The translations under genes were made by a program, and so were the position numbers. 49,743 bases of DNA. Source: a virus. The notes under the pieces are model-generated. The model made no database searches. It worked only from the letters and a program-made list of their open reading frames with translations, and had not been told where the DNA came from. The DNA is taken from IMG/VR virus record IMGVR_UViG_3300045988_138037. One strand, written 5' to 3'. This document shows positions 19,699 through 37,278 of this stretch, one piece after another; position 1 is the stretch's first letter; the number at the start of each line of letters is the position of its first letter.

Positions 19699-19863
19699 TT
19701 AAAAACTACCTAATACCAAAATACCTAATATATATGACATTATACATACCATAACTGCTAGAATTGTCATTTCAATACCTATTTTATCTACAATAAATAA
19801 GCAACCAACTCCTATTGCTAGTATAATTATCATTGTTATTAATCCAACTATAAATGTTATCAT
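19699..19863 (-). CDS. Small two-TM membrane protein (54 aa; not in the ORF track)
   Basis: MITFIVGLITMIIILAIGVGCLFIVDKIGIEMTILAVMVCIMSYILGILVLGSF. ATGA overlap with the dnaE stop. Confidence 0.4.
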   Translation of the reverse strand: MITFIVGLITMIIILAIGVGCLFIVDKIGIEMTILAVMVCIMSYILGILVLGSF

Positions 19864-22800
19864 ATTTTCATTAACTCCAAATCATTTACTATTAAGTCAT
19901 TACCACTTCTTTTACCTTTGACAAGTAATATGTTTCCTTCTTTTGCTTTATCTTTTATATCTTGGCACTCCCAAGTGTTTGCAAATATTAAACATTTTAA
20001 AGCTCCGTGTTGATTTGAACCTGTCATAAAGCACATCATCTTGCCATTTTTCTGCATATGCTCACGTATTTCTGTAACCTCTACAACTTGTATAGCAACC
20101 ATATCATCTGTATAATCAACTATACTTCTTACGTTATAGTTTTCAAGTGGATGTTTTGATAAGTACATTCCATATACATCACGTTCCCACTGCATTTTTA
20201 TTTTCTCATCATAAGGTAAGTGTTCACACTCTACTCCATTTTTAACATCTGTTTTCTTACGATTTCTCATATTGTAGACCCACATAAAATGCTCTCTATT
20301 TTCATTTTCAAAATCAAATATACCTGCTTTTATCATAGCCATTACAACATTTTTCTTTATGTACTTCTTAATACCTCTATCTAACATATCTTCAAATGAT
20401 GATATAGGTACAAGTTCTTTTTGTATATATTTAACTACATCTTCTCCTATACCTTTTAGATAGTTTATAGGTATTCTAATACCTTCTTTAGTCCCTTCAA
20501 ATCTATAACTACCTTTATTTATGTCTGGTGGTAGTATTTTTATGTTTTTCTTTTTACACTCTGCAATTAAAGACTCTACTTTAGATTGGTCTCCTATCTC
20601 AGAGTTTAGAAGTGATGCGTACCAATACACAGGATAATGACACTTTAACCACGCAGTTTTGTACGATAATACTCCATATGAAGTAGAATGTGATTTGTTG
20701 AATGAGTATCCTCCACTAACGGCATCCTCTATTTCTTGCCATATTTTCTCAATGAAATCTCTATCATATCCACGAGAAACACTATCATTAATAAACTTAT
20801 CACGTATATCTGTATCATTTTTTATATCCTTATTCTTTCTTATGTTATTATCTGCAAAAGCTATGTCCCACCCTGCAAATGTCTTGCAATCAAGTAAAAA
20901 CTGTTCTTGATATGTCATAAGACCAACAGTATCTTTCATATACCATTCTCTGTCTGGGTGTATTTCAAACTTCTTACCATTACGTCTTGCAACGTATTCA
21001 TTAAAGTCTCCAACTCCAGGTCTTATTAACGCATTTATCGCTATTAAATCCTCGAATTTCTTTGGCTTTTGTTCCATTATCATAGCACCTTGATTTGCTA
21101 GTTGGAATATTCCACTTACATCACCACTACTTATCATATCGTAAACTTCTTTATCTTCAAAATCAATCTCATCTAAATCTATGTCAATACCTTCGTTTTC
21201 CTTTATCATATCAAGAGCATACCTAACAGTAGTTAAGTTCTCAAGACCAAGCACATCCATTTTGTAGAAACCACACGCTTCTATCTCTTTCTTATCAAAT
21301 TGAACAACAGGTATAGTTCTGTTTCCTGCGTGGTCATTTTCATACGCACAAGGTGTAAGTGATGTTAAGTTATTATATACAACAAACCCTCCTGCGTGTT
21401 TAGACTCGTGAGATATAACTCCTTCTAATCTTCTTATACAAGAAGCTATAAACTCGTTATCATCCATAAACTTTTTAAATTGATTTGACTCATTGTATGC
21501 TTGTTCAACAGTTACATCAAGTCTTTTAGGTATAGAACCACTTATTATTGCTATGTCTTTTTGACTAAAATCAAAAGCACTTAACACTTTTCTTACTACG
21601 TTTTTACAAGATAATGTACCATAAGCCCTTATACGTGCTACATTATCCATACCGTGTAAATCTTGTAAATGTTTAAATACGTGTTCTTGGTCTGAAAAGT
21701 CAACATCTAGGTCTGGTACCCTTCCGTGTGCCAAGAAACGTTCAAACAGTAAATTGTGTGGAACAGGGTCAACATTAGTTATATCCATACAATAAACAAC
21801 TTTACTTCCTGCACCAGAACCTCTACCGTCTCCAACTAATACACCATTCTTTCTCGCATCAACAATATAATCAGCAACATTTATAAAATAACCAGAGTAA
21901 CCTGTCTCACTTATAACTTGAAGTTCGTTTAATATATCTCTTCTGATTTGAGCACGATTAGGATAGTCTTTAGGATATTTCTTTTCAAACCCTTCCCAAG
22001 TTTTCTCTGCTAAGTAATCATCTTCACTCATACCATTTAATTTAGGGTAGTGTGGTAAGAAGTTACCTTTTATAACGTGTGCATTACATTTGTTTGCTAT
22101 CTCGGCAGTATTTAAAATAGCCTCCATTATATATACTTTCTCATTAGCGGAATAGCCTACAAATGTTTCTATCATCTCTTCTGTTGATTTGCACCAATAA
22201 TCATTGGTTGGGAATTTAAACCTCTTTTCATTGTTCATCTTTTGACCAACTTGTAGAGCAAGTAATACTTCGTGTATTTTAGCATCCTCTTTAAGTACAT
22301 AATGTATATCGTTAGTTGCCACTAACTTTATACCTAATTCTTTTGCTATTTTTATTACTTCTTTATTCATAATCCATTGGTCTGGTATATCATTTGGTTG
22401 TATCTCTAAATAAAAATCATCACCAAACACATCTTTGTACTTCTTAGCTTCTAATTTCGCTTCTAAGGGGTTATCAAGTGTTAATTGACCAATTACACCA
22501 CCTATACACGCAGAGCTTATTACAAGTCCTTCTTTTAATTCTGATAGCATTTTAAAATTAACGTGAGGTTTACGATAGAAGTTTTCTTTAAACGCTCTAG
22601 CTTGTAACCTATATAAGTTTTGAAGTCCTATTTGGTCTTTAGCAAATACTATGATGTGATAACCTTGATCTTCTTTACACGCAGTATCGCCTTTACTCAT
22701 ATAAAACTCACATCCAAGAATAGGTTTTATACCTTCTTCTTTACATATTTTTTCAAACTCGTAATGTCCACCCATACTTCCGTGGTCTGTAATCGCTATG

Positions 22801-22922
22801 AACTCTTGTCCAAGTTCTTTAGCACGTTTTACTAACTCTTTTACTTTACTCATACCGTCAAGTGTTGAGTATTCTGTGTGCGTATGGAGGTGACCAAAAC
22901 CTCTCACTATTTTATTCTCCAT
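19860..22922 (-). CDS. dnaE: DNA polymerase III alpha subunit (DnaE-type, N-terminal PHP domain)
   Basis: GFGHLHTHTEYSTLDG and AITDHGSMGG PHP motifs; about 1020 aa. The start at 22922 follows SD aaggaggagg. The GTG at 22946 in the track lacks an SD. Confidence 0.9.
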   Translation of the reverse strand: MENKIVRGFGHLHTHTEYSTLDGMSKVKELVKRAKELGQEFIAITDHGSMGGHYEFEKICKEEGIKPILGCEFYMSKGDTACKEDQGYHIIVFAKDQIGLQNLYRLQARAFKENFYRKPHVNFKMLSELKEGLVISSACIGGVIGQLTLDNPLEAKLEAKKYKDVFGDDFYLEIQPNDIPDQWIMNKEVIKIAKELGIKLVATNDIHYVLKEDAKIHEVLLALQVGQKMNNEKRFKFPTNDYWCKSTEEMIETFVGYSANEKVYIMEAILNTAEIANKCNAHVIKGNFLPHYPKLNGMSEDDYLAEKTWEGFEKKYPKDYPNRAQIRRDILNELQVISETGYSGYFINVADYIVDARKNGVLVGDGRGSGAGSKVVYCMDITNVDPVPHNLLFERFLAHGRVPDLDVDFSDQEHVFKHLQDLHGMDNVARIRAYGTLSCKNVVRKVLSAFDFSQKDIAIISGSIPKRLDVTVEQAYNESNQFKKFMDDNEFIASCIRRLEGVISHESKHAGGFVVYNNLTSLTPCAYENDHAGNRTIPVVQFDKKEIEACGFYKMDVLGLENLTTVRYALDMIKENEGIDIDLDEIDFEDKEVYDMISSGDVSGIFQLANQGAMIMEQKPKKFEDLIAINALIRPGVGDFNEYVARRNGKKFEIHPDREWYMKDTVGLMTYQEQFLLDCKTFAGWDIAFADNNIRKNKDIKNDTDIRDKFINDSVSRGYDRDFIEKIWQEIEDAVSGGYSFNKSHSTSYGVLSYKTAWLKCHYPVYWYASLLNSEIGDQSKVESLIAECKKKNIKILPPDINKGSYRFEGTKEGIRIPINYLKGIGEDVVKYIQKELVPISSFEDMLDRGIKKYIKKNVVMAMIKAGIFDFENENREHFMWVYNMRNRKKTDVKNGVECEHLPYDEKIKMQWERDVYGMYLSKHPLENYNVRSIVDYTDDMVAIQVVEVTEIREHMQKNGKMMCFMTGSNQHGALKCLIFANTWECQDIKDKAKEGNILLVKGKRSGNDLIVNDLELMKI

Positions 22923-23079
22923 AAATTTCCTCCTCCTTATATTCACATTGATTGCACGTTACTTCTTGTTTATAACATCCATATCCGCACATATCAAAAT
23001 AATCACACTCGGCACAACATTCTCCACATTCATTTTTCCATAACTTGATTGGAAATCTTTTATATATCTTCTTATACAT
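22912..23079 (-). CDS. Small Cys-rich protein (55 aa; not in the ORF track)
   Basis: MYKKIYKRFPIKLWKNECGECCAECDYFDMCGYGCYKQEVTCNQCEYKEEEIYGE; overlaps the dnaE start. Confidence 0.35.
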   Translation of the reverse strand: MYKKIYKRFPIKLWKNECGECCAECDYFDMCGYGCYKQEVTCNQCEYKEEEIYGE

Positions 23080-23743: not shown

Positions 23744-24112
23744 TTATTTGGTATTTTTTTCAAGTCTTTGTATCTCTCTATCTATATACCAACGAGCTTT
23801 TTTCAAATCTTCTAACTCATCATTTTTATAAGGTGCTCTTGCTATGTATTTTATTGCATTACCTAGTGAAAAACCTAAATTCCAAGACTCTATAAAATCT
23901 ATGGCTTCTATTTCACCTACATTGTAATGATTTGGATGATTAATTGTTTCCTTGCTTGTTAATAACGCAGGTTCTATATTTATTGATAACGCAGGGTAAT
24001 AGTTACCACACGTGTCTGTGCCTTCTGTTCTCATATCAATAAACTCACTATCACGGTTTGTGCAAAAATTATTTTTGTGCCAATCACACGTATTACATAT
24101 AAAACAACTCAT
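23744..24112 (-). CDS. DUF3310-family protein with an N-terminal Cys-rich segment
   Basis: NHPNHYNVGEIEAIDFIESW...GNAIKYIARAPYKN..EDLKKARWYIDREI. The ATG at 24112 overlaps the primase stop by 1 nt. Confidence 0.6.
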   Translation of the reverse strand: MSCFICNTCDWHKNNFCTNRDSEFIDMRTEGTDTCGNYYPALSINIEPALLTSKETINHPNHYNVGEIEAIDFIESWNLGFSLGNAIKYIARAPYKNDELEDLKKARWYIDREIQRLEKNTK

Positions 24113-25098
24113 TATAATATCTTCTCCCTCTGTTCGTATAATCGTTTTAATTCTTGTATTTCGCAACTTCCTGGGTCTACACCGTCTGGCATTTTTATAA
24201 CCCATTGATTTGCTTTATAACGCATCATATCTATTGCTTTTTTCGTTGCATTAAGACCTGCTTCATCTCCGTCATAACTCCATATAACGTCTTTTCCACT
24301 TCTTAATAATATTCTGTATTGCTCTTCTGTTAAATGTGCTCCAAATGTACATACTGCGTTTTCATAACCTGCCTCAAACCAACGCCACACATCAAACATA
24401 CCCTCACATATTATTATCTCTCCATAACCCTTACAAGAGTCTATGTTGTATAATATCTGTCCTGTTTCCATTGTGTGTGGTGCGTGAAACCACTTAGGGT
24501 TATCTTTTGCACGTATTTTACGAAGTGAAACACCAATTCTTACATCATCTATAGTTATAGGTATGACAAGTCTTTCGTAGAGTGTGAATATCCCTCCACT
24601 TTTCTTCTCAACCTCGATTTCTTTTGCATATCTCAAATCAAAATGTCTTAAAGTTTCTTCATTAAAGTTTCTGAAACTCTTAACAGAACTCATTTCGGCT
24701 TTAGGTGTGTATTCCTCTATAACCTTCTTTGTTCTTCTCTTTGATTTGATGTACTTCATAAATCTTTCAACTTCTTTTAAATAGTCATTTTTGCGTTCTG
24801 CTATGATGAGGTTATCTATGTCTATTTCAAGTATTTGAGCCACTATTTTTACTGCTTGTGGAAAAGGCACATCTTCCACTTTTTCTACAAATGTAAAAAC
24901 ATCACCAACTCCACATTCAGAATTGGTATGACAAGCCCAAAGAAATTCCTCATTAACAACGAACGCAGTAGGATTATCTCCTTTATGTATAGGACAAGCA
25001 GAACGTATAAATTCTCCATAATACTGAAAATCAACTCCATAGTGATTAAGTATACGCTCTACATTCATATTTTCTTTTATAACACCTACTGCATCCAT
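24112..25098 (-). CDS. dnaG: DnaG-like DNA primase (CHC2 zinc finger plus TOPRIM)
   Basis: CPIHKGDNPTAFVV zinc finger; IIICEGMFDV and SYDGDEAG TOPRIM motifs. Confidence 0.85.
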   Translation of the reverse strand: MDAVGVIKENMNVERILNHYGVDFQYYGEFIRSACPIHKGDNPTAFVVNEEFLWACHTNSECGVGDVFTFVEKVEDVPFPQAVKIVAQILEIDIDNLIIAERKNDYLKEVERFMKYIKSKRRTKKVIEEYTPKAEMSSVKSFRNFNEETLRHFDLRYAKEIEVEKKSGGIFTLYERLVIPITIDDVRIGVSLRKIRAKDNPKWFHAPHTMETGQILYNIDSCKGYGEIIICEGMFDVWRWFEAGYENAVCTFGAHLTEEQYRILLRSGKDVIWSYDGDEAGLNATKKAIDMMRYKANQWVIKMPDGVDPGSCEIQELKRLYEQREKIL

Positions 25099-29091: not shown

Positions 29092-29769
29092 TCACCCCCA
29101 AGTTTGTGTCATTACTATTTCATTACTGAAATCTAGTATAGTTTCATTATATACTGTTTCACCATTTATGTAATTAAGTAACTTCCATATAGCGTGTGAT
29201 GTTATCGCTAATGCACTTGGTAAAACTGTTTGAGAAACTCCACAAGCACTTACTTCTGCCTCATCATCACTATAAAATGTTTGTTCATACATCTTTGTTT
29301 GTTCTCTGTTTTTCGGGTCAACTACATATATCCTACCTCCACGTAAATCCATACGTGTTTCTATTAACAAATCAATAGAAGGGTTATTTTTTATAGCTCT
29401 GTTATATATATCTTTTCTTGATTTCATAGTATCTGTAAGCATAAATACTATACCTTGCATTGGAACAGAGCCGTCTACCTTCTCATTTCTTGCATTTACA
29501 GTAAAGCCTGTGAATAACTTTATTATATTACGTATTGATAGAGCTTTGTTTCTATCTATATCTCTAACTCCAAACATCTGATTTGGTAAATTGTGCATAC
29601 CAACTTCATCAAAATCGTATATATGTAAGTTACTTAATCCCATTTTTGCAAGTGAGAAAGCAATCCAACTTCCTGTTGCTCCTGCACCTATTATATTTAT
29701 TTTAGTATTAAACTCCTCTGGGTTTAATATGTTGATTTGACGACTAAAATCATCCATTATTCTTGACAT
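29092..29769 (-). CDS. Minimal ThiF/MoeB-type E1-like adenylyltransferase
   Basis: Rossmann GxGxxG INIIGAGATGSWIAFSLAKMG, then IYDFDEVGMHNLPNQMF (D-x-D..NL.RQ-like) and LTDTMKSR. Confidence 0.7.
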   Translation of the reverse strand: MSRIMDDFSRQINILNPEEFNTKINIIGAGATGSWIAFSLAKMGLSNLHIYDFDEVGMHNLPNQMFGVRDIDRNKALSIRNIIKLFTGFTVNARNEKVDGSVPMQGIVFMLTDTMKSRKDIYNRAIKNNPSIDLLIETRMDLRGGRIYVVDPKNREQTKMYEQTFYSDDEAEVSACGVSQTVLPSALAITSHAIWKLLNYINGETVYNETILDFSNEIVMTQTWG

Positions 29770-29796
29770 CTATATCTCTCCTTTAATTCTTTTTTT

Positions 29797-30090
29797 TTAT
29801 TTTCTATATTTTCTAACATTATATATGTTTATACTTATATCACATATACCTAAAACCTTTATTTCTTCTTTCAAACTGTTGTGTATTACATCATTTACAT
29901 ATATATCAGTTTCTGTAATTTTGATAATATCTGTTATGTTTATAGCTGATTTCATTGTGTTATCATAATCATATATAAACAAACTTGGTTCTTCGCCCGA
30001 TTTTTGTAATAACACATAATCACCTTGATATATTTTACCAAATTCTTCTTCTCTATAACTTGCATCAAATTTTATATTTACTTTACTCAT
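29797..30090 (-). CDS. Hypothetical protein upstream of the E1-like gene
   Basis: SD aagagga; 97 aa. Confidence 0.5.
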   Translation of the reverse strand: MSKVNIKFDASYREEEFGKIYQGDYVLLQKSGEEPSLFIYDYDNTMKSAINITDIIKITETDIYVNDVIHNSLKEEIKVLGICDISINIYNVRKYRK

Positions 30091-30147
30091 TGTTATATCC
30101 TCTTAAAAATATTAAATAAACGTTATGCTTCCTTTAAAATTTTGAAT

Positions 30148-30321
30148 TTAATCCATATTCTTGTGTCTATCTAGCAACAAAGCCATATGTTTTATTTGAA
30201 TTGGATTTTTAAAATCTTTAGCATACAAATTTCTATACTCGCCAGTATGTTTATTTACAACCATAATAAAACTATCTGACTCCATTCTAAGTATCCAATC
30301 TCCCCATTTACCTATTTTCAT
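30148..30321 (-). CDS. Hypothetical small protein (57 aa; not in the ORF track)
   Basis: Strong SD aaggagg 6 nt before the ATG; MKIGKWGDWILRMESDSFIMVVNKHTGEYRNLYAKDF... Confidence 0.45.
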   Translation of the reverse strand: MKIGKWGDWILRMESDSFIMVVNKHTGEYRNLYAKDFKNPIQIKHMALLLDRHKNMD

Positions 30322-30337
30322 AATTTCCTCCTTATTT

Positions 30338-30502
30338 TTATTTAATAAAACGTATCTTAAAATACATTAATATCATAAATAAATTTATCAATAATTGACT
30401 TTTGTGTACAGTATTACTCTTAAATAAAAACAAAGTAAATAAGATATATAATATCGCAAATATATCTATTGGTTCTATTTTATTATTTTTTACTATTTTC
30501 AT
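30338..30502 (-). CDS. Hypothetical small membrane protein (54 aa; not in the ORF track)
   Basis: Strong SD aggagga; hydrophobic segment IDIFAILYILFTLFLF. Confidence 0.4.
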   Translation of the reverse strand: MKIVKNNKIEPIDIFAILYILFTLFLFKSNTVHKSQLLINLFMILMYFKIRFIK

Positions 30503-30511
30503 AACTTCCTC

Positions 30512-30736
30512 CTAATTTCTATTTAAAATACTTATTAATTCTTCTTTTTGTTTTAAACTTAAATTATAAACCTTTTCTATTTCTTCCTCCCACTTTTTAG
30601 GAGCACTCCTCTTTCCTGTTTCTATCATTGATAAAAAAGATGGAGTTACATTTAATTTTATAGCCATATCTTTAAGTAGTTCTCCGTTATCTATTCTCAA
30701 TTTTCTTAAGAATTTTCCAAATTCGGTAAGTTTCAC
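30512..30736 (-). CDS. XRE/Cro-type HTH transcriptional regulator
   Basis: FGKFLRKLRIDNGELLKDMAIKLNVTPSFLSMIETGKR. Confidence 0.8.
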   Translation of the reverse strand: MKLTEFGKFLRKLRIDNGELLKDMAIKLNVTPSFLSMIETGKRSAPKKWEEEIEKVYNLSLKQKEELISILNRN

Positions 30737-30766
30737 ACTATCACTTCCTTTAAAATTTTGATATTT

Positions 30767-30937
30767 TTATTCAATAATTTCTGATATTTGATTATATATA
30801 TCAATTAATAATTCATCAATTTCTTCTCTTTTATTGTTTAATTCTCCCAAAAATCCATTATATTCTTCCATTGAAAAATACAATAAGAATTGTTTTAATA
30901 ACTTTGATTTTTCATCTGTTAGAATTATCCTAACCAT
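30767..30937 (-). CDS. Hypothetical small protein (56 aa; not in the ORF track)
   Basis: Strong SD aggagga; MVRIILTDEKSKLLKQFLLYFSMEEYNGFLGEL... Confidence 0.4.
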   Translation of the reverse strand: MVRIILTDEKSKLLKQFLLYFSMEEYNGFLGELNNKREEIDELLIDIYNQISEIIE

Positions 30938-30960
30938 AATTTCCTCCTAAAACTCCTCTT

Positions 30961-31320
30961 TTAAACTAACAATTCTGGATTTTCGTATATATTTCCTATT
31001 ACTTTACACTTATTGTATATTTTACCTACAAAATAATCTCCTGCTCTATATATCCCAAAGTGATATTCTACTTTTTCAGTTATTATTTCATCTTCAACAT
31101 TTGAATAAAATTCAACTATATCGCCTTCGTATATCTCAGTTCCATTACTATCTTTAATGCCTGTGTATTGCATCAATGTATATAAATATAAAGGTCTTAC
31201 ATCATCTTTGGTGTTTACATAGCAATCATCTCCTAGATGTGAGTATGATACTATTAAATTATCTTGGTCATACATAATATTTTCTTCTTTATTCCATGCT
31301 CTAAATTTAATTTTTCTCAT
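30961..31320 (-). CDS. YopX-family protein
   Basis: KFRAWNKEENIMY ... LMQYTGIKDSNGTEIYEGDIV ... VIGNIYENPELL. Confidence 0.85.
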   Translation of the reverse strand: MRKIKFRAWNKEENIMYDQDNLIVSYSHLGDDCYVNTKDDVRPLYLYTLMQYTGIKDSNGTEIYEGDIVEFYSNVEDEIITEKVEYHFGIYRAGDYFVGKIYNKCKVIGNIYENPELLV

Positions 31321-31329
31321 AACTTCCTC

Positions 31330-32265
31330 CTATTGTATGTAACCTAAATAACTTAAATATTGATTTTCGTTATCTTTACAGTAACTTTCTATTAATATCT
31401 CAAGGTCTATCTCTTCATCTTGTGATAAGAATACTCCTAAATAATCTATAACACTAGAACCGTGTTCTATATAATACATACATTCAAATATATCTTCTGG
31501 TTCTAGCGAGTCAAATATCTCAAGCACTTTATTTTCCTCTTCTTTTTCGCTTGTTTTTTCGTTTTTTTTTGAGTAATTACCATATCCACTATAATCTGTG
31601 TAATCACTCCACCAACTATTACAAGTAGTTACGTTGTTTTTATTAACGTTGTAAGTCTTTTTAGTTACTTTATTACCTATTTCTGATTTGATAGAGTTTA
31701 TTAACTCCTCACTTGGGTCTATTCTTGTACAAATCATCTCTTCTATCTCTGCAATTTTTCTATATAAAGACTCTATTATTTCTGTATCTCCACCATAATT
31801 TATTTCATATGGTAGTTTCTCGTATATAACACCTGTTGTAAAGTCGTATAAATCTATTCTAAAATCACCACTTTTGTTTGCTATTATACGTATAAAGAAA
31901 TCTTCTTCATTTTCTGCGAACACTTCGATTTGCTTATCATCTTGACCAGAAGGTGTAGTAGGCATATTAACGTGAGAATGACCCCACACCTTCATATTAT
32001 TCCATATCTCTACACCATTTTCTTCGTATAACAAGTCCATAGCAAATTCATTAAGTCCTTCTGTTGTTATTTCTGTTGTAGTAGCGTGTACTTCTTGTCT
32101 AAATAAAAACACATCATCTATATAAAATACATTACCTACTCTTCTTGAAGTACCCAACCAACCTATTTCTAGGTCTGATTGGCGTACATACTCCTTCATC
32201 TTGTTCATAGCGTTTAAATTTATACTTATCTTTGGTGCAAATCTATCCATTAACTTAACATTCAT
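31330..32265 (-). CDS. JAB/MPN (JAMM) metallopeptidase with a C-terminal extension
   Basis: Complete JAMM signature: EIGWLG ... HSHVNMPTTPSGQD (H-x-H-x7-S-x2-D). Confidence 0.75.
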   Translation of the reverse strand: MNVKLMDRFAPKISINLNAMNKMKEYVRQSDLEIGWLGTSRRVGNVFYIDDVFLFRQEVHATTTEITTEGLNEFAMDLLYEENGVEIWNNMKVWGHSHVNMPTTPSGQDDKQIEVFAENEEDFFIRIIANKSGDFRIDLYDFTTGVIYEKLPYEINYGGDTEIIESLYRKIAEIEEMICTRIDPSEELINSIKSEIGNKVTKKTYNVNKNNVTTCNSWWSDYTDYSGYGNYSKKNEKTSEKEEENKVLEIFDSLEPEDIFECMYYIEHGSSVIDYLGVFLSQDEEIDLEILIESYCKDNENQYLSYLGYIQ

Positions 32266-32266
32266 A

Positions 32267-33706
32267 TTATAATTCCTCTCTTTCTTCTAACTCTTCTTCG
32301 TAACAATCTTCGCACATTCCTTCTTTTTCTTCTTGACAGTCTGTACAGTACGTATATCCACACTCTTTGCATTGAAATGTATCTTCTTTTCTTACTGCAT
32401 CTCCACATTCTGCACAATCTACAAACAGTTCTTCATAGCAATCTTCACAATACCATTTATCATTTGTGAAGTTCATTTCATCCTTTCTACACTCTTCACC
32501 ACACTCACAACAAGTTTCAATTAAGTCTGAATAACAATCATCACAATGCCATTCATTGTCTATTAAGCTCATTTCATCCTTTCTACACTCTTCACCACAC
32601 TCATAACAAGTTGCAATTAATTCACAATAACAATCATCACAGTAAACATCATCTCCATACCAAGTCATATCATTGTTATGTGCTTTTTCATCACAATTAT
32701 CACAACGGCTATAATCATTTTCATAACATCTTTCACATACATACATACTATTATTATCTATCCAATAAGCGTGGTCATCACACATATGGTCTCCACAATC
32801 TTCGCAATAAAATGCACTATCTTCATCTAATTCCTCATCACATATATGGCAAACTTTGCACTCTCTATCATATGGATTTTCTAAATCATTGCCTCCTTCG
32901 TCTATACAATCCCAATTACGTATGTATGCTCCTGCTGCATCATCTGTATTAACTTGTTGTAAGAAGTTTAAAACAACTATAAACGAAGCATATATCTCGT
33001 AGTTGTTCATATTCTCAACAAGCATAGACCCTGCACTACCCCAACACGCTTCTCCATTTTCTCCATTAACGTGTGGGTGTGGGTCTTTATCTGTCCAATA
33101 TGATTTTCTGTTATAATCCTCATCTAAACCATTTATATAACAAGTCATATCGTCAAAATCAAAACTTAAAAGATATTTATTACCTTTAAACTTGTTACCT
33201 TTCTCATCATATATATCTATGTAATCGGTTTTTATTTCAACTACTTTACCTGTTGGTCTCGCTACTGCACTTACTACATATTTATGGCTTAATATAGCTT
33301 CCATATCACTTGTATAATCTCTACCTTCACCTTCACTACTTAATACTTTTACTCTGCTCATCGCATTTTTGTATGAATTCCAAGCAACATCCATATATTC
33401 TTTATATCTTTTTATATCTCTAAGGTATTCTTGTTCTTCATTTTTAGCTCTTTCTAAAGCCTTTTTATTATCTTTCAAAGCTATCTCATTAAACGCTTTG
33501 CTTAACTCTTTAACTCTATCTTCCATTGTCTTTTCTTTCCTTTCAACTAATTCAAATCTTTCCATTAAATGTCTCTCACTTGGATACTCAACTAAATTCA
33601 TCCAACTGTTACTTAATATCTCTTTAACAGTAGCAGTATCTCCTACTACCATTTTCCCAGAATTTCCATATACTCTTCTAACCACATCTCCTACTTCAAA
33701 TATCAT
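32267..33706 (-). CDS. E2 (UBC)-like domain protein fused to a C-terminal array of CxxC zinc ribbons (RING-like)
   Basis: YLLSFDFDD...DPHPHVNGENGEACWGSAG resembles UBC HPN-x(5-7)-C. The C-terminal 200 aa carry about 15 CxxC pairs, including a 96-nt tandem duplication. Confidence 0.5.
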   Translation of the reverse strand: MIFEVGDVVRRVYGNSGKMVVGDTATVKEILSNSWMNLVEYPSERHLMERFELVERKEKTMEDRVKELSKAFNEIALKDNKKALERAKNEEQEYLRDIKRYKEYMDVAWNSYKNAMSRVKVLSSEGEGRDYTSDMEAILSHKYVVSAVARPTGKVVEIKTDYIDIYDEKGNKFKGNKYLLSFDFDDMTCYINGLDEDYNRKSYWTDKDPHPHVNGENGEACWGSAGSMLVENMNNYEIYASFIVVLNFLQQVNTDDAAGAYIRNWDCIDEGGNDLENPYDRECKVCHICDEELDEDSAFYCEDCGDHMCDDHAYWIDNNSMYVCERCYENDYSRCDNCDEKAHNNDMTWYGDDVYCDDCYCELIATCYECGEECRKDEMSLIDNEWHCDDCYSDLIETCCECGEECRKDEMNFTNDKWYCEDCYEELFVDCAECGDAVRKEDTFQCKECGYTYCTDCQEEKEGMCEDCYEEELEEREEL

Positions 33707-33858
33707 TTATACAACCTCCTAATATTGTATGATTTGGTATTGTAAGTGCTTATACACTTTAAAAAGAGCACAACAGGGTAAAAAATAAGTTTGATATGTA
33801 ATTTTGAAATATCCCCAACGGTATGCGTTGTGCTAAAATTAAAATGTATAAACAAGAA

Positions 33859-33876
33859 GGTCTACGTGTGTAGACC
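33859..33876 (-). terminator. Hairpin downstream of the Ubl gene (possible attenuating terminator)
   Basis: ggtctac-gtgt-gtagacc, followed on the minus strand by ttcttgtttat. Confidence 0.35.
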
Positions 33877-33889
33877 CTCTATTTATTTA

Positions 33890-34708
33890 TTAAGCATTTA
33901 TTTCTGCTATTAATCTTTGTAAGAACATTATTTTATTGTTTATAGCGTGAGCTTCTTCTATGTAAAATCTGTAAGACTTTTCTAAATCTTCTAGCTCTTT
34001 ATTTAAAACATCCATAGCTTTACTATCTTTTGACTCAACTTCTATTTCTCTTACATCAACTACTTCTTCTCTAACTTCTCTTATATCAACTACTTCTTCT
34101 CCATTAAACCCATCAACAATCTCGTTATAAACACTTAAAAACATATCTTCTTCAACTACTAATGTTTCATTACCAACTTCTATTTGTAAAAAGTTATCTC
34201 CACACATATTTATACTGTCTGTATTTATTACTTGTGGAAGTTTTACACCTAATAATATCGTTACTTCTTCTTGTGTACAATCTGTTTTTCTAAAACTAGC
34301 ATTACCTTTTATCATCTTCATAGCAACAAGTAAGTTACCATTGTTTATTCTTGTATCAAGTGCTACCTTCTCACCGTCTAATCTTACCTCGTGGTTAGAT
34401 ACACCTATATTAGCTCTTTCAAATATTTCGTAAGCAGTATCTCCTTCTGTGTACTCAACAACTTCTAATCTACCTGGCATCATACCAACCTTTATGTTTG
34501 GCATATTACCTTTTATCATTTTCATAGCAACTAATAAATTTCCATTGTGTATAGTTCTGTCTAAATCTATCTTTTCTCCGTCTAATCTTATTTCGTGATT
34601 AGATAACTCTACATCTGCTATTTCAAATATTTCTCTTGCAGTTGCTCCTTCGTTTGTAACTACCTCTACTAATCTACCTGGCATCATTCCTACTTTAATT
34701 TTTAACAT
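33890..34708 (-). CDS. Tandem ubiquitin-like (beta-grasp, ThiS/MoaD-like) domain protein with a C-terminal coiled-coil extension
   Basis: Two 68-aa repeats: (M)xKIKVGMMPGRL.VV...G.TA.EIFE.A.....NHE(I/V)RLDGEK..LD..I.NGNLLVAMKMIKGN. Confidence 0.6.
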   Translation of the reverse strand: MLKIKVGMMPGRLVEVVTNEGATAREIFEIADVELSNHEIRLDGEKIDLDRTIHNGNLLVAMKMIKGNMPNIKVGMMPGRLEVVEYTEGDTAYEIFERANIGVSNHEVRLDGEKVALDTRINNGNLLVAMKMIKGNASFRKTDCTQEEVTILLGVKLPQVINTDSINMCGDNFLQIEVGNETLVVEEDMFLSVYNEIVDGFNGEEVVDIREVREEVVDVREIEVESKDSKAMDVLNKELEDLEKSYRFYIEEAHAINNKIMFLQRLIAEINA

Positions 34709-35371: not shown

Positions 35372-35535
35372 AACTATTTTCCTCCGACTTATTTATTTTC
35401 TATTGCACTTTCTTGTTCATTCTTATCACTTTCTTTATATTATAACAAATTCCATACATTTTTTATTATTTTTTTCTTTTTGGAACTTGTTTTTTATAAA
35501 TTATTTACACCCTTAGTCTGTTTTTTTTTATTTTT

Positions 35536-35830
35536 TTATGTTCGTATTAGGGAGCGGTAGCGACCGTCGTAATAAGGTAACAACAAGGCGATAAACTTGG
35601 TTGGAGCAAAGCGACGTGATGAAGTAAGTGAGGGGATTGTATATGATACGAATGAAGTATGTGTAAAAGGTGTGTATAAACGAAGAGAACGCACCGAAGA
35701 ACGTGGAAAGAACGTGAAAAAATACAAATCAAAGTAGCTTTGTTGATGCAATCAACACGTTTTGGTACTTTTGCGTTTCAAAAGTACATTCAGTAAAAGA
35801 AAGGGGAACGAACGTGAGTCTTTCCTCCTT
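35536..35830. ncRNA. GC-rich non-coding island; candidate structured RNA (strand not determined)
   Basis: Composition differs sharply from the flanks, with only overlapping short ORFs on both strands. Hairpins gttgat-gca-atcaac and gtacttttg-cgttt-caaaagtac. Three GAACG(T/C) repeats spaced about 12 nt apart. Confidence 0.3.
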
Positions 35831-35841
35831 TTAAGGGGGTT

Positions 35842-35880
35842 AAAATAAAAAAAGGGAGCAGAACTTAATCCACTCCCTTT
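35842..35880 (-). terminator. Rho-independent terminator after the 463-aa gene
   Basis: 8-bp stem aaagggag/ctcccttt with a 14-nt loop, followed on the minus strand by tttttttatttt. Confidence 0.6.
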
Positions 35881-35886
35881 GAAAAA

Positions 35887-37278
35887 CTATACTAACATAT
35901 CAAGACCTAAAACTTTAAGTATATGCTCTGGTTGACTAACTATAAATGCACCCCATTGGAACGTTGGGTTCACTTCTTTTATAACATCTCTTTGCTCAAA
36001 TACCATTTTTCTAAACTCTGCATAATGTTGCTCTTCTACTAAAGCATATTTAACTTCTCCACCTTGTACAAAGTAAGGTAGTATTCCATTCATCTCTTCT
36101 GGTACATCTTGACCTACACAAGAGTATATTCTGAATACGAAGTTAGTAAGTTCTTTAGCTTGTTGTTGTTCTTCTTTTAATACTAATGAACGAACTTCCC
36201 TACTCTCTCTAGCACTAAACTTAACTAATGTATTATCTTCCATTATAGCTTGTCTAAATCTTTGAGTTGATTTGTTATTAGCAACTTTATTTAATCTAAC
36301 TCTATGCTCTAAATCTCTACATAACATTTCAAAGTTTTGATTAGGTATAGTACAAAGGTAAGTTAATCTAGTACATTCATATTCACCAAGTTGTATGTAT
36401 AAGTTCTTTAAAGTGTTCATTTGAGTGTTATCTAGTTTATTACCTTCATAGTAGTTAGTTATATAATCATATGTTTGTATGAAGTTGAACGCACTCTCTC
36501 TGTTGAACTTAACTTTTATAGTTTCTCTTAATGAACTCCAATTAAATGTATAGTATAACTTATCTTCTGGTCTGTACTCGAAATCTCTAACATCTATATT
36601 GAATTCAGATTTAAGAGTTTCGTGAGTTTCTATATATCTAGCAACATCTGCTATTCTTCTTACTTGTGAGTCTGTTGGTTCTTGTAATTCATAACTCATA
36701 GCCATTAAATCTTTATTGTGCTCGAACCACTCTCTTTTGTGTATATTATTCTTAACTTCTTCAACTATTAGAGCAAAATCACTTCTATGTTTTAATGTCT
36801 CTAATGCTTCTGATAACATTAATCTTTGGTTATAGAATGATATACCGCTTAAAACTTTTATTATTTCTGATGCTTGGTTAGCATTTAAGTTATTTATGAA
36901 CTCTATTTGTTTCGCATCTATGTCCATACCTACTCTATCTCTAAGACCTGCCATTATAGTTTCTGCTTGTCTTGTTGATACTTGTGCAGTAGTAGTGTTG
37001 TAATGTTTCTTACAAAGTTCTTTTAACTTATTACTGAAAGATTTAACTATTATCTTTTGTCTAAATGCTTCTGACTCGTTAAATACAAAATTTACCTCAT
37101 CATCTAACTTAACTTCTTTCATATTGTTTTTAAACTCATCTTCTTTTAAAGTAACTTCTAAGTTAAGTATTTGATTTACTATATTATTTTGTACTCTCTC
37201 GTTACCTCTTTCAAGTGCTTCCATATATTCTGCCTTTAAGTGTTGTAACATTTTTTCTAATTCTCTTCTGTTTCTCAT
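35887..37278 (-). CDS. Hypothetical early protein (463 aa)
   Basis: SD aaaggag; long ORF; no motif recognised. Confidence 0.6.
   Translation of the reverse strand: MRNRRELEKMLQHLKAEYMEALERGNERVQNNIVNQILNLEVTLKEDEFKNNMKEVKLDDEVNFVFNESEAFRQKIIVKSFSNKLKELCKKHYNTTTAQVSTRQAETIMAGLRDRVGMDIDAKQIEFINNLNANQASEIIKVLSGISFYNQRLMLSEALETLKHRSDFALIVEEVKNNIHKREWFEHNKDLMAMSYELQEPTDSQVRRIADVARYIETHETLKSEFNIDVRDFEYRPEDKLYYTFNWSSLRETIKVKFNRESAFNFIQTYDYITNYYEGNKLDNTQMNTLKNLYIQLGEYECTRLTYLCTIPNQNFEMLCRDLEHRVRLNKVANNKSTQRFRQAIMEDNTLVKFSARESREVRSLVLKEEQQQAKELTNFVFRIYSCVGQDVPEEMNGILPYFVQGGEVKYALVEEQHYAEFRKMVFEQRDVIKEVNPTFQWGAFIVSQPEHILKVLGLDMLV

What the first reader, a model, noticed from the sequence alone, without database searches (positions are those of the whole stretch)
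29092..34708. Phage-encoded ubiquitin-like conjugation toolkit: tandem Ubl, E2-like/RING-like protein, JAMM peptidase and minimal E1
Four genes within 5.6 kb of the early/middle leftward operon together encode the parts of a Ubl conjugation pathway.
- **Ubl:** 33890..34708 carries two tandem 68-aa beta-grasp-like repeats, each ending in MIKGN.
- **E2-like:** 32267..33706 has a UBC-like HPH-x7-C motif (DPHPHVNGENGEACWG) after a beta-meander-like segment, followed by a long array of CxxC zinc ribbons.
- **Peptidase:** 31330..32265 has a complete JAMM signature, E...HSHVNMPTTPSGQD.
- **E1:** 29092..29769 is a 225-aa ThiF-type adenylyltransferase (GAGATGS, DFDEV..NLPNQ).

Ubl/E1/E2/JAB sets are known in bacteria as defence systems (Bil, and CBASS Cap2/Cap3) and in mobile-element cassettes. 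A full set inside an apparently virulent phage, with a poly-Ubl precursor and a RING-like array, is not something I can tie to a described function. It could modify host or virion proteins, or counter host Ubl-based defence.
Basis: partly seen in the sequence, partly recalled or inferred. Interest (0 to 1): 0.92.

Follow-up and report, generated by a model that had tools for sequence, protein, structure and literature searches.

The report
Phage-encoded ubiquitin-like conjugation gene module
An uncultured ~50-kb phage carries a conserved four-gene set (a tandem ubiquitin-like precursor, a new cysteine enzyme that looks E2-like, a JAMM peptidase and a minimal E1) that most likely tags proteins during infection, turning up in viruses machinery so far described in bacteria only as anti-phage defence.

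Summary
In detail: all four ORFs and the quoted motifs are at the stated coordinates.

- **E1 (solid):** Pfam ThiF E=3.9e-21. The adenylation residues and crossover-loop Cys176 are invariant in 8 phage lineages.
- **JAMM peptidase (solid):** E33…H96xH98x7S106x2D109 is invariant, with repeated weak JAB profile hits.
- **Ubl repeats (good support):** they match the ThiS/SAMP2 beta-grasp family. An orthologue scores above the Pfam ThiS cutoff, and the repeat profile hits SAMP2 structures at E=4e-4.
- **E2 (plausible, not proven):** there is no Pfam, PADLOC or PDB sequence hit and no significant fold hit. UBC E2s are the only near-full-length structural matches (TM about 0.4). hhalign places HPH and Cys221 on the E2 HPN and catalytic Cys. 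HPH…CxG is present in all 85 aligned homologues and in 131 of 134 distant representatives.
- **"RING-like" (unresolved):** ligand spacing looks PHD/RING-like, but Foldseek's nearest matches are LIM domains.

Ubl, E2-like, JAB and E1 occur in that order in all 11 distinct loci with sufficient flanks. The E2-like core family has 2,803 metagenomic cluster representatives. Analogous modules sit unrecognised in cultured phages, where only "ThiF, thiamine biosynthesis" is annotated. I found no prior description.

Verdict: a new, phage-borne variant of Ubl conjugation systems. Its target and biological role are unknown.

The parts
35851..35880 (-). Strong terminator-like hairpin (12-bp stem plus T-run) directly after the upstream 463-aa gene. 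It marks the upstream boundary of the transcription unit that holds the module.
   Evidence: sequence read
35439..35447 (-). Extended -10-like element tgtTATAAT in the ~480-nt non-coding stretch, preceded by an A-rich tract. It is a putative promoter for the unit made of two small ORFs, the Ubl gene and the enzyme genes (inference).
   Evidence: sequence read; not listed by the consensus scan because no -35 hexamer matches
34505..34708 (-). Ubl repeat 1 (residues 1-68), a ThiS/SAMP2-type beta-grasp ending MIKGN.
   Evidence: SAMP2 5lda_B E=3.9e-4; NCBIfam SAMP2 0.0025; Ubl HMM 3e-34
34301..34504 (-). Ubl repeat 2 (residues 69-136), also ending MIKGN.
   Evidence: Ubl HMM 1.1e-32
33890..34300 (-). 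C-terminal extension of the Ubl precursor (residues 137-272, then the stop codon). It is acidic with a C-terminal amphipathic helix. It is present in window-like phages, L001, L002 and L017, and absent in L003, L004, L008 and L013, so it is dispensable for the core mechanism. It is presumably removed by the JAB peptidase.
   Evidence: no family hit
33855..33880 (-). Hairpin (11-bp stem, weak T tail) 10 nt after the Ubl stop codon, in the 183-nt gap before the E2-like gene. It is a possible partial terminator that would give more Ubl transcript than enzyme transcript (inference).
33542..33706 (-). E2-like protein, N-terminal small beta-barrel (residues 1-55, SH3/KOW-like). It is absent or replaced in other lineages, and is a candidate target-recognition module.
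   Evidence: OapB, L14e/KOW and SH3 matches; variable in the alignment
33335..33526 (-). E2-like protein, single long helix (residues 61-124).
32855..33334 (-). E2-like catalytic core (residues 125-284): helix, beta-meander, loop with invariant W204, H210-P211-H212, C221 and G223, then three helices with invariant L249, D256, A258 and G259. It is the proposed acceptor of the Ubl thioester.
   Evidence: (pLDDT 93.9, pTM 0.89)
32312..32854 (-). Zinc-finger array of the E2-like protein (residues 285-465). The first module is a conserved 8-ligand site, C286-x2-C289-x11-C301-x2-C304-x4-C309-x2-(H/C)312-x11-C324-x2-C327. Variable zinc-ribbon repeats of about 32 aa follow, and one repeat (356-387) is present in only about 5% of homologues.
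   Evidence: (LIM-like, 2xjy_A E=8.8e-5)
31756..32265 (-). JAMM/MPN+ metallopeptidase domain (residues 1-170) with E33, H96, H98, S106 and D109.
   Evidence: (PADLOC JAB 5.3e-4)
31330..31755 (-). C-terminal half of the JAB protein (residues 171-311): a Y/G/N-rich linker and a conserved C-terminal domain of about 60 aa with unknown role.
29797..31320 (-). Six small ORFs inserted between the JAB and E1 genes: YopX 30961-31320, 56 aa, XRE-HTH 30512-30736, 54 aa, 57 aa and 97 aa. They are not part of the conserved module.
   Evidence: (YopX 2.8e-24)
29092..29769 (-). Minimal E1 (ThiF/MoeB-type adenylyltransferase, 225 aa). It has the GxGxxG loop, D52/D54, N60, Q64, K75, D113 (the 'TDT' aligned with ThiF 'TDN'), R118, R139 and crossover-loop C176, all invariant. 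It has no rhodanese domain and no CxxC zinc site.
   Evidence: (ThiF 1zud E=2.1e-6)

Best explanation
The four genes form a phage-encoded ubiquitin-like protein conjugation module, expressed with the early/middle replication genes.

Proposed mechanism:
1. The Ubl gene makes a precursor: two head-to-tail beta-grasp domains, each ending ...IKGN, plus a 136-aa tail.
2. The JAMM peptidase cuts at each KGN junction. This releases single Ubl units with a free C-terminus (...KG or ...KGN), as deubiquitinases do with polyubiquitin and as BubCD does with BubAB.
3. The minimal homodimer-type E1 binds the Ubl, adenylates its C-terminal carboxylate with ATP, and takes it onto crossover-loop Cys176 as a thioester.
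4. The Ubl passes to Cys221 of the 479-aa protein. Its core is a diverged UBC-like fold in which HPH replaces the E2 HPN motif.
5. That protein acts as an E2/E3 hybrid. Its lineage-variable N-terminal domain and zinc-finger array select the target, and the Ubl ends up on a target lysine.
6. The JAMM enzyme can also reverse the modification.

What is shown: the identity of the E1, JAB and Ubl, the invariance of the catalytic residues, strict synteny and breadth of distribution. What is inferred: the E2 fold assignment (moderate), the thioester relay, the cleavage site, the targets (host or phage proteins), and the biological role (host takeover or counter-defence is the most likely).
For: E1:
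- Pfam ThiF E=3.9e-21, and best PDB match E. coli ThiF.
- The adenylation residues and C176 are invariant across 8 phage lineages at 26-70% identity.

JAB:
- The exact JAMM motif is invariant in 5 orthologues at 31-47% identity.
- Orthologues hit 7 different JAB models, E=4.5e-6 to 1e-2.

Ubl:
- Pfam ThiS is above the gathering score, and SAMP2 scores 2.2e-5, for the L003 di-Ubl.
- The 10-repeat profile hits SAMP2 structures 5lda and 1rws at E=3.9e-4 and 7.7e-4 over 59 of 68 positions.
- All 22 Ubl domains examined end KGN, followed by a stop, K or R, another repeat or an extension. That is the signature of a processed precursor.

E2-like:
- The AF2 core model has pLDDT 93.9 and the UBC order of elements.
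- 9 of the top 50 PDB fold hits are UBC-fold E2 or E2-like proteins. They have the highest TM among those listed (0.38-0.41 for UbcH5b, UbcH7 and UbcH5c over 135-148 columns). CBASS CdnG-E2 and Atg10 are also listed.
- hhalign against verified UBC sequences gives a co-linear 115-column alignment with HPH on HPN and C221 on Cys85, P=0.007.
- H210, P211, H212, C221 and G223 are invariant in 85 homologues. HPH...CxG is present in 131 of 134 distant representatives.

Module:
- Ubl, E2-like, JAB and E1 occur in the same order in all 11 distinct loci with flanks, from IMG/VR, Logan and ENA.
- Analogous sets occur in Flavobacterium phage FpV4 (Ubl ...KSGG plus extension, an HSH..C protein, JAMM, ThiF), Xanthomonas jumbo phages and a human-gut phage.
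- The published precedent for each step is Bil and Bub (PMC11601596, PMC11601603).
Against: - No single test of the E2 assignment is significant. There is no hit to Pfam UQ_con or Prok-E2_A-E, PADLOC E2 models or PDB sequences. The best PDB fold E-value is 0.68 and TM is below 0.5. The hhalign probability is 5%.
- The core has six strand segments rather than the four of canonical UBC. The Cys lies only 4 residues before the next helix.
- The HxH...C...D pattern could instead be a metal site.
- The Ubl lacks the canonical Gly-Gly terminus.
- The Ubl's closest relatives (SAMP2, ThiS) are sulfur carriers that can work without any E2.
- No structure was predicted for the Ubl or the JAB, and no complexes were modelled.
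- No target, host or expression data exist.
Confidence: 0.6

Rival explanations
1. E2-independent conjugation, as in archaeal sampylation or Urm1/TtuB. The E1 alone activates the Ubl and the JAB processes and removes it. The 479-aa HPH...C protein is not an enzyme of the relay but the principal target, an adaptor or scaffold, or a zinc-binding regulator.
For: The Ubl's only significant relatives are SAMP2 and ThiS. Those systems need only an E1 and a JAMM (PMC4443979, PMC2948915). The E2 assignment is not statistically established.
Against: HPH...CxG is conserved in nearly all of a family with 2,803 representative clusters, which indicates an active site rather than a passive target. The motif aligns with the E2 HPN...Cys. 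The gene always sits between the Ubl and JAB genes, the position of the E2 gene in Bil operons as listed in PMC11601603.
Confidence: 0.14
2. A sulfur-carrier pathway. The Ubl is thiocarboxylated by the E1, as for ThiS/MoaD/SAMP2/TtuB, and delivers sulfur for a phage-directed modification of tRNA, DNA or a cofactor. The JAB only matures the carrier, and the cysteine- and zinc-rich 479-aa protein is the sulfurtransferase or acceptor.
For: The best E1 matches are ThiF and MoeB. The Ubl matches ThiS and SAMP2. The invariant crossover-loop Cys is also the ThiF acyl-disulfide residue (established knowledge). The phage carries other nucleotide and folate metabolism genes: FolD, MazG and a nucleotide kinase.
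Against: There is no rhodanese domain on the E1 and no SGGxDS PP-loop motif in the 479-aa protein (read from the translation). No cysteine desulfurase, ThiG/MoaE-type synthase or PP-loop hit came up among about 28 window ORFs and 12 orthologues scanned, but no window-wide search was run. Tandem carrier repeats and long C-terminal extensions are typical of modifier precursors, not sulfur carriers. The module is embedded among replication genes in many unrelated phages.
Confidence: 0.12
3. MccB-like chemistry on a C-terminal asparagine. After the JAB exposes ...KGN, the ThiF-like enzyme adenylates the terminal Asn and converts it to a succinimide or N-P-linked nucleotide, as MccB does with MccA. 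The product is a nucleotidylated protein rather than a lysine conjugate.
For: The Asn is invariant at the end of all 22 Ubl domains. Two genes stop exactly after it (L004, L008) and four have only one further residue. That MccB is a ThiF-family enzyme acting on a C-terminal Asn is recalled knowledge and was not tested here.
Against: The E1 lacks MccB's N-terminal peptide-clamp domain, since it is only 225 aa. Related phage modules end in GG (FpV4, Xanthomonas) or AA (L007), not Asn. An invariant E1 Cys and an E2-like Cys are not needed for that chemistry.
Confidence: 0.04

Closest known systems
Bil (bacterial ISG15-like) anti-phage systems, BilA-D (Hor et al., bioRxiv 10.1101/2023.09.04.556158; Chambers et al., PMC10557695)
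   Same: The same four parts are encoded as separate genes: Ubl (often with two beta-grasp domains), E2, JAB/JAMM peptidase and E1. Cys-based chemistry is implied. There is no separate E3, and the E2 is thought to recognise the target.
   Different: Bil is a bacterial defence system, whereas this module is carried by phages among replication genes. [quoted passage not shown] The E2-like protein has no sequence match to any E2 model and carries extra N-terminal and zinc-finger domains. Both Ubl repeats carry a processing motif (KGN) instead of one terminal Gly.
Bub / '6E' operons (Iyer et al. 2006, PMC1779556; Ye et al., PMC11601596; Gong et al., PMC11601603)
   Same: The Ubls have one to three tandem beta-grasp domains. 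A JAB peptidase cleaves a precursor to expose the Ubl C-terminus. A zinc-finger protein is associated with the operon. The E2 is highly diverged: BubB superposes on UBE2D2 only at 3.8 A over 104 C-alpha atoms.
   Different: The Bub E1 and E2 lack catalytic cysteines and use Tyr and Ser oxyesters. Here both candidate cysteines are invariant. Bub has a DUF6527 serine protease and JAB-E1 or E2-E1 fusions, and none of these is present here.
Archaeal SAMP / UbaA / HvJAMM1 and Thermus TtuB/TtuC
   Same: These are the closest sequence relatives of the Ubl (SAMP2). They also use a minimal ThiF/MoeB-type E1, and a JAMM enzyme for maturation and removal.
   Different: Those systems have no E2 and double as sulfur carriers, and their Ubls end in Gly-Gly. 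Here an extra conserved Cys enzyme is always present and the terminus is KGN.
Eukaryotic polyubiquitin and ubiquitin-fusion precursors (UBI4, UBB, UBC; UBA52, RPS27A)
   Same: Both have head-to-tail modifier repeats, each ending in the processing motif. Both have a blocking residue or extension protein after the last repeat that a peptidase must remove. This comparison rests on established knowledge.
   Different: The peptidase here is a JAMM enzyme encoded in the same module. There are two repeats at most in the loci seen. There is no sequence relationship beyond the beta-grasp fold.
Lambda/T1 tail-assembly TAPI (Ubl) with TAPK (JAB + NlpC) (PMC1779556)
   Same: This is the only previously described phage-borne pairing of a Ubl and a JAB. 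There too, the JAB is predicted to release the Ubl from a C-terminal extension.
   Different: It has no E1 or E2 and lies in the tail-assembly operon. The present module lies in the early/replication region and has activation machinery.
CBASS type II Cap2/Cap3
   Same: The window E1 hits the E1 part of Cap2-type 'E1-E2' models (best 1e-11), and the JAB hits Cap3-type JAB models.
   Different: Cap2 is an E2-E1 fusion whose substrate is the CD-NTase C-terminus. Here there is no CD-NTase, no fusion, and a dedicated Ubl.

Membership tests
ThiF/MoeB/E1-like adenylyltransferases (PF00899) | Profile match above the curated cutoff | tested here: met
   75.7 bits against a cutoff of 28.1, E=3.9e-21, covering 21-212 of 225 aa
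ThiF/MoeB/E1-like adenylyltransferases (PF00899) | Gly-rich ATP loop and the catalytic Asp of the 'TDN' motif | tested here: met
   G28xG30xxG and D113 are invariant in 8 phage lineages. D113 (TDT) aligns with the ThiF TDN motif.
ThiF/MoeB/E1-like adenylyltransferases (PF00899) | Cysteine in the crossover loop (thioester or acyl-disulfide site) | tested here: met
   C176 is invariant in 8 lineages. Its role as a thioester site cannot be tested in silico.
ThiF/MoeB/E1-like adenylyltransferases (PF00899) | Structural zinc site (two CxxC pairs) or rhodanese domain, as in MoeB, ThiF and MoeZ | tested here: not met
   The 225-aa sequence has no CxxC pair and no C-terminal domain. These are subfamily features, not features of the superfamily.
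JAMM/MPN+ metallopeptidases | E...H-x-H-x7-S-x2-D zinc and catalytic motif | tested here: met
   E33, H96, H98, S106 and D109 are invariant in 5 orthologues. The same motif is present in the L007 and FpV4 homologues.
JAMM/MPN+ metallopeptidases | Profile match above the curated cutoff (Pfam Prok-JAB or JAB) | tested here: not met
   Prok-JAB scores 12.8 bits against a cutoff of 25. PADLOC JAB models score E=5.3e-4 for the window protein and as low as 4.5e-6 for FpV4 gp51. A profile search against PDB sequences found nothing.
JAMM/MPN+ metallopeptidases | MPN fold | not tested
ThiS/MoaD/SAMP beta-grasp Ubls | Profile or sequence match to the family | tested here: met
   The L003 orthologue scores 28.1 bits on Pfam ThiS against a cutoff of 22.5, and SAMP2 at 2.2e-5. 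The repeat profile hits SAMP2 5lda_B at E=3.9e-4 and 1rws at E=7.7e-4. The window protein alone gives only NCBIfam SAMP2 at 0.0025.
ThiS/MoaD/SAMP beta-grasp Ubls | C-terminal Gly-Gly | tested here: not met
   All 22 domains end K-G-N. A C-terminal Gly would be exposed only if the Asn is removed.
ThiS/MoaD/SAMP beta-grasp Ubls | Beta-grasp fold | not tested
The fold is inferred from the near-full-length alignment to SAMP2 structures.
UBC/E2 superfamily | Profile match (Pfam UQ_con, Prok-E2_A-E; PADLOC E2) | tested here: not met
   No hit at E<=1 for the window protein or for 5 orthologues or analogues. The core profile found no E2 among PDB sequences at E<=10.
UBC/E2 superfamily | UBC fold (N-terminal helix, beta-meander, active-site loop, C-terminal helices) | tested here: inconclusive
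   The model has that order of elements but six strand segments. Foldseek's best E-value is 0.68. E2s are the best near-full-length matches at TM 0.38-0.41 and rmsd 5.7 A over 135-148 columns, and make up 9 of the top 50.
UBC/E2 superfamily | HPN-type motif about 10 residues upstream of an invariant catalytic Cys | tested here: met
   H210-P211-H212, then 8 residues, then C221. All are invariant in 85 homologues and present in 131 of 134 distant representatives. hhalign aligns them with HPN and Cys85 of UbcH5b (probability 5%, P=0.007).
UBC/E2 superfamily | Forms a Ubl~Cys thioester | not testable with these tools
   This needs biochemistry.
RING/U-box-type E3 fingers (including Prok-RING) | Binuclear cross-brace zinc finger; profile match | tested here: inconclusive
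   The spacing C-x2-C-x11-C-x2-C-x4-C-x2-(H/C)-x11-C-x2-C fits the PHD/RING consensus (recalled knowledge) and is 93-100% conserved. However, Foldseek's nearest matches are LIM domains (2xjy_A E=8.8e-5). Prok-RING_2 scored only E=0.58 on one orthologue. Most distant family members have just two CxxC pairs.
Bil system (BilABCD) | E1 with IAD-AAD-CYS architecture; bacterial defence-island context | tested here: not met
   The E1 is a single 225-aa adenylation domain. The module lies in a phage genome with terminase, portal, capsid, tail and replication genes. The only hit in 185,579 species genomes is one 18-kb MAG contig.
Bub / 6E operons | E1 and E2 without catalytic Cys (Tyr and Ser instead); DUF6527 protease | tested here: not met
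   C176 and C221 are invariant. No DUF6527 match was found among the module proteins.

The most novel reading that the evidence does not exclude
Tailed phages from several unrelated lineages carry their own ubiquitin-like conjugation system. This one is a Clostridia-type gut phage clade, and analogous modules occur in Flavobacterium FpV4-like phages, Xanthomonas jumbo phages and a human-gut phage, with structural matches to crAss-like phage proteins. The system is built around a previously unrecognised, phage-specific E2/E3-hybrid family (HPH...CxG core plus variable target-binding domains) and a polyubiquitin-like precursor with an unusual ...KGN terminus. The phages use it during infection to tag host proteins, for example defence or replication factors, or their own proteins. 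That would make it a viral counterpart of the bacterial Bil and CBASS Ubl defences.
Probability: 0.4. Interest if true: 0.92.

Novelty: new variant of a known kind. Interest (0 to 1): 0.8.

Why it matters
Ubl conjugation in bacteria has only recently been shown to be real biochemistry, and so far it appears as an anti-phage weapon (Bil, CBASS type II, probably Bub). A conserved, widespread conjugation module on the phage side would show that both parties in this arms race use ubiquitin-like tagging. It would also add a large, unannotated enzyme family to the E2-like world: 2,803 cluster representatives, none of those for which Pfam or source-name data were shown (the ~120 listed homologues) carrying an informative one.

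The module offers a compact system of a 225-aa E1, a JAMM peptidase and a di-Ubl precursor for studying how minimal conjugation cascades work.

It also corrects an annotation. The "thiamine biosynthesis protein ThiF" recorded in cultured Flavobacterium and Xanthomonas phages is most likely the E1 of such a module. Those phages give an immediate experimental handle.

Tried and rejected
**Searches that found nothing**
- Megablast of the 5.8-kb region against 50,697 phage records: no match.
- tblastn of the E2 core against the same set: no match.
- JAB family profile against PDB sequences: nothing relevant.
- E2-core profile against PDB sequences at E<=10: no E2 and nothing significant.
- PADLOC and NCBIfam on the E2-like proteins: no hits.
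- Rfam on the whole window: only the tRNA.

**Searches that were uninformative for technical reasons**
- The fold search with the full-length 479-aa model was swamped by the zinc-finger array (LIM hits) and the N-terminal barrel.
- The homologue search with the Ubl returned only relatives of at least 82% identity, which was useless for depth. Diverse Ubls were taken from related loci instead.
- The search for related loci with the core profile was throttled by a low-complexity pattern (1 locus in IMG/VR, 1 in GTDB). It was replaced by a degenerate DNA pattern for DPHPHV[ND]G, which gave 12 loci. Two of these (L011, L016) had no module proteins. They may be chance matches or lack enough stored sequence.

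**Homology I could not establish**
- Between the window's E2-like core and the middle proteins of FpV4 (gp52) and L007 (491 aa), using a broadened HMM: no hit. The Xanthomonas 892-aa protein matched only marginally (E=0.004 in a tiny database). These are therefore called analogous modules only.

**Ideas considered and rejected**
- The 479-aa protein as a TtuA/Ncs6-like thiolase: rejected because it has no PP-loop motif.
- The Ubl tandem as an ISG15-like uncleaved di-domain: judged less likely because repeat 1 also carries the invariant KGN, and single-domain versions exist.

**Literature**
- Seven searches found no description of a phage-encoded E1/E2/JAB/Ubl set.

Full report
**1. Observation**

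- 33890..34708 encodes 272 aa. Residues 1-68 and 69-136 are 71% identical repeats, each ending MIKGN.
- 32267..33706 encodes 479 aa, with DPHPHVNGENGEACWG at residues 208-223 and many CxxC pairs after residue 285.
- 31330..32265 encodes 311 aa, with E33 and H96-S-H98-x7-S106-x2-D109.
- 29092..29769 encodes a 225-aa ThiF-type protein.

In the window, six small unrelated ORFs separate the JAB and E1 genes. They include YopX (Pfam 2.8e-24) and an XRE-like HTH.

**2. Genomic context**

The window is a tailed-phage genome or near-genome, about 31% GC. It has the following genes:
- Structural and lysis genes: terminase, portal, major head protein, Ig-domain tail proteins and an endolysin.
- Replication and nucleotide-metabolism genes: DnaB helicase, primase, SSB-like protein, exonuclease, RusA, a MazG-like NTP pyrophosphohydrolase, a nucleotide kinase and a FolD-like enzyme.
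- One tRNA-Trp gene.

The replicative polymerase is DnaE-like. Its nearest cultured relatives are Geobacillus and Bacillus siphophages at only about 34% identity. There is no nucleotide-level relative among 50,697 deposited phage records.

Related contigs of 47-53 kb recur in Logan and ENA assemblies. The only hit among 185,579 species-representative genomes is an 18-kb contig in a chicken-gut Lachnospiraceae MAG. This points to gut Clostridia as hosts, but it is weak evidence.

No integrase or repressor was found among about 28 ORFs scanned, so "virulent" is plausible but unproven.

**3. E1**

- Pfam ThiF scores 75.7 bits against a cutoff of 28.1.
- NCBIfam's best matches are ThiF and MoeB equivalogs, all far below their equivalog cutoffs, so this is not a true ThiF.
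- PADLOC matches the E1 half of CBASS Cap2-type models.
- The best solved relative is E. coli ThiF, E=2.1e-6.

I aligned E1s from eight phage lineages at 26-70% identity. The ATP loop, D52/D54, N60, Q64, K75, D113 (aligned with the ThiF TDN Asp), R118, R139 and crossover-loop C176 are all invariant. The protein has no rhodanese domain and no CxxC zinc site. It is a minimal E1 that retains a candidate thioester cysteine.

**4. JAB**

Pfam is sub-threshold (Prok-JAB 12.8 bits), and a family profile finds nothing in PDB by sequence. Against that:
- The JAMM motif is exact and invariant in five orthologues at 31-47% identity.
- Orthologues and analogues hit seven different PADLOC JAB models over most of the domain, from E=4.5e-6 for FpV4 gp51 to about 1e-2.

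I regard the assignment as secure. The C-terminal 140 aa have no known relative.

**5. Ubl**

The window protein alone gives only NCBIfam SAMP2 at E=0.0025. Orthologues from distant loci are clearer.
- The L003 di-Ubl scores above Pfam's ThiS cutoff (28.1 against 22.5 bits) and hits SAMP2 at 2.2e-5.
- A profile of ten repeats hits the SAMP2 structures 5lda_B and 1rws at E=3.9e-4 and 7.7e-4 over 59 of 68 positions.

Across 12 loci, all 22 Ubl domains end (I/V)KGN. What follows is one of these:
- a stop codon (L004, L008);
- one K or R and then a stop (L003, L013, L014, L018);
- a second repeat;
- a 125-180-aa extension (window, L001, L002, L017).

Single-domain and two-domain genes both occur. 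This is the pattern of a modifier precursor that a peptidase must trim, as in polyubiquitin or BubAB (PMC11601596). It argues against an ISG15-like uncleaved tandem.

Whether the mature end is ...KG or ...KGN cannot be decided here. The invariant Asn remains unexplained.

**6. E2-like protein**

It has 127 homologues, none with an informative Pfam domain or name.

AF2 on an 85-sequence alignment gives a confident model, pLDDT 88. It contains four parts:
- a small N-terminal beta-barrel (residues 1-55);
- a 64-residue helix;
- a core (residues 125-284);
- a zinc-finger array.

The fold search of the whole model only reported LIM-type fingers (2xjy_A E=8.8e-5) and SH3/KOW-like barrels. The core modelled alone has pLDDT 93.9 and pTM 0.89. 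Its element order is helix, beta-meander (six strand segments), a long loop carrying HPH and C221, then three helices.

Against PDB it has no significant match (best E=0.68). However, 9 of the top 50 hits are UBC-fold E2 or E2-like proteins: UbcH5b, UbcH7, UbcH5c, Ubc9, UBE2L3, CBASS CdnG-E2 and Atg10. They are the only matches spanning the domain, at TM 0.38-0.41 and rmsd 5.7 A over 135-148 columns. For scale, the experimentally validated BubB E2 superposes on UBE2D2 at 3.8 A over 104 C-alpha atoms (PMC11601596).

I ran hhalign between the family and five canonical E2s. The result is probability 5% and P=0.007. It is nevertheless a co-linear 115-column alignment that puts HPH on HPN and C221 on the catalytic Cys85.

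Conservation and distribution:
- W204, H210, P211, H212, C221, G223, L249, D256, A258 and G259 are invariant in 85 homologues.
- A profile search of 1.84 billion representatives finds 2,803 clusters at E<=1e-3 and 1,135 at E<=1e-10.
- 131 of 134 sampled representatives have HPH-x(8-11)-C-x-G.
- In the viral structure library the core matches only uncharacterised phage proteins, TMq 0.45-0.60, including proteins from crAss-like phages.

My reading is that this is a large, phage-centred family with an invariant His/Cys site. It is most probably a very diverged UBC-like fold, but this is not proven.

**7. Zinc array**

The first module after the core has eight ligands, spaced C-x2-C-x11-C-x2-C-x4-C-x2-(H/C)-x11-C-x2-C, each 93-100% conserved. 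That spacing resembles PHD/RING fingers (recalled consensus). Foldseek's nearest structures are LIM domains, and there is no Prok-RING profile hit.

The later ~32-aa repeats vary in number. Most distant family members have only two CxxC pairs. "RING-like" is therefore unresolved. The array and the N-terminal domain are the variable parts of the protein, as expected for target-binding surfaces.

**8. The module**

I built HMMs of the four parts and ran them over all fetched loci. Ubl, E2-like, JAB and E1 appear in that order on one strand in all 11 distinct loci with enough flanks: the window, L001-L004, L008 (the same contig as L010), L013, L017, L018, L020 and L021. Truncated loci show the expected subset.

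In the window, a strong terminator ends the upstream gene, and an extended -10-like element follows. A hairpin sits 10 nt after the Ubl stop codon, which could give the Ubl transcript an excess over the enzyme transcripts. This last point is inference.

Analogous sets occur elsewhere:
- Flavobacterium phage FpV4: gp53 is Ubl-like with ...KSGG plus an extension, gp52 has HSH...C, gp51 is JAMM (PADLOC 4.5e-6), and gp50 is ThiF annotated "thiamine biosynthesis protein".
- Xanthomonas jumbo phage PhiXhv-12: a 140-aa protein ending ...SGG, an 892-aa HPH...CLG protein with Cys-rich tails, and ThiF.
- Human-gut phage MT835544: a 78-aa Ubl, a 491-aa protein, JAMM and ThiF.

Sequence homology of the middle protein in these three is not established, apart from a marginal match for the Xanthomonas protein.

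**9. Mechanism and rivals**

The best-supported reading is a Ubl conjugation cascade, with these steps:
1. JAB matures the precursor.
2. The E1 adenylates the Ubl and carries it on C176.
3. The Ubl moves to C221 of the E2/E3-hybrid protein.
4. That protein's variable domains choose the target.
5. JAB can reverse the mark.

Confidence is 0.6. The rivals are:
- E2-independent, sampylation-like conjugation with the 479-aa protein as target or adaptor (0.14);
- a sulfur-carrier pathway (0.12);
- MccB-like chemistry on the terminal Asn (0.04).

The biological role is unknown. Host takeover or counter-defence is suggested only by the early-gene context and by analogy with the Bil/CBASS conflict.

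**10. Novelty**

E1/E2/JAB/Ubl operons have been known in bacteria since 2006 (PMC1779556), and some are proven defence systems. The only phage Ubl-JAB pair described before is the lambda TAPI/TAPK tail-assembly pair, which lacks an E1 and an E2.

Seven full-text searches found no report of a phage-encoded activation and conjugation set. I therefore rate this as a new variant of a known kind, with high interest. The main caveat is that the E2 step and all of the biochemistry are inferred.

Noticed in passing
window 35887-37278 (-): A 463-aa protein with no family hit sits directly upstream of the module and is co-conserved there in L001 and L002 (51-54% identity). L003 and L004 have proteins of 447 and 476 aa in the equivalent position, with similar short '...Q..I...L...AS..I' repeats but no BLAST similarity. 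It may be functionally linked to the module, or simply a replication-region gene.
   Followed up: partly
window 29797-31320 (-): Six small ORFs are inserted between the JAB and E1 genes: YopX, an XRE-type HTH, a hydrophobic 54-aa ORF and three others. In L001-L004 the JAB and E1 genes abut or are separated by at most one 50-aa ORF. L020 and L021 have a 1.1-1.4 kb insertion at the same place. This looks like a hotspot for moron-like insertions inside the module.
   Followed up: partly
window 17337-18161 (-): A FolD-like bifunctional tetrahydrofolate dehydrogenase/cyclohydrolase (phrog_7320, E=3.9e-70), an auxiliary one-carbon metabolism gene. A MazG-like NTP pyrophosphohydrolase (16435-16950) and a nucleotide kinase (23744-24205) lie nearby.
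   Followed up: no
window 19860-22946 (-): The replicative polymerase is DnaE-like (Pol III alpha), 1028 aa. It is about 34% identical to those of Geobacillus and Bacillus siphophages. This is the only link to cultured phages that I found.
   Followed up: partly
window 35372-35850: A non-coding stretch of about 480 nt lies between a strong terminator and the next small ORF. It has pyrimidine-rich tracts and an extended -10-like tgttataat at 35439-35447 (-). There is no Rfam match.
   Followed up: partly
window 2475-4601 and 4618-9960 (+): Two very large ORFs (708 and 1780 aa) in the tail region have no PHROG match at E<=1e-5.
   Followed up: no
L007 6885-8222 (MT835544.1, human faecal phage): A 445-aa reverse-transcriptase-like ORF (YADD motif) lies immediately downstream of the ThiF gene of that phage's Ubl/JAB/E1 module.
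   Followed up: no
L001 12130-13086 and L002 10261-11232: The E1 orthologues in these two lineages carry an extra C-terminal domain of about 95 aa, absent from the window protein and with no family assignment.
   Followed up: no
L005 (FpV4, NC_041872.1) and L006 (PhiXhv-12, PV764601.1): The deposited annotation 'thiamine biosynthesis protein (ThiF)' in cultured Flavobacterium and Xanthomonas phages is probably wrong. The gene sits beside a GG-ended Ubl-like gene and, in FpV4, a JAMM gene. No thiamine pathway genes are annotated in the 10.5-kb stretches examined.
   Followed up: partly
window 31330-31755 (-): The C-terminal half of the JAB protein has a Tyr/Gly/Asn-rich low-complexity linker, followed by a conserved domain of about 60 aa with unknown function.
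   Followed up: no
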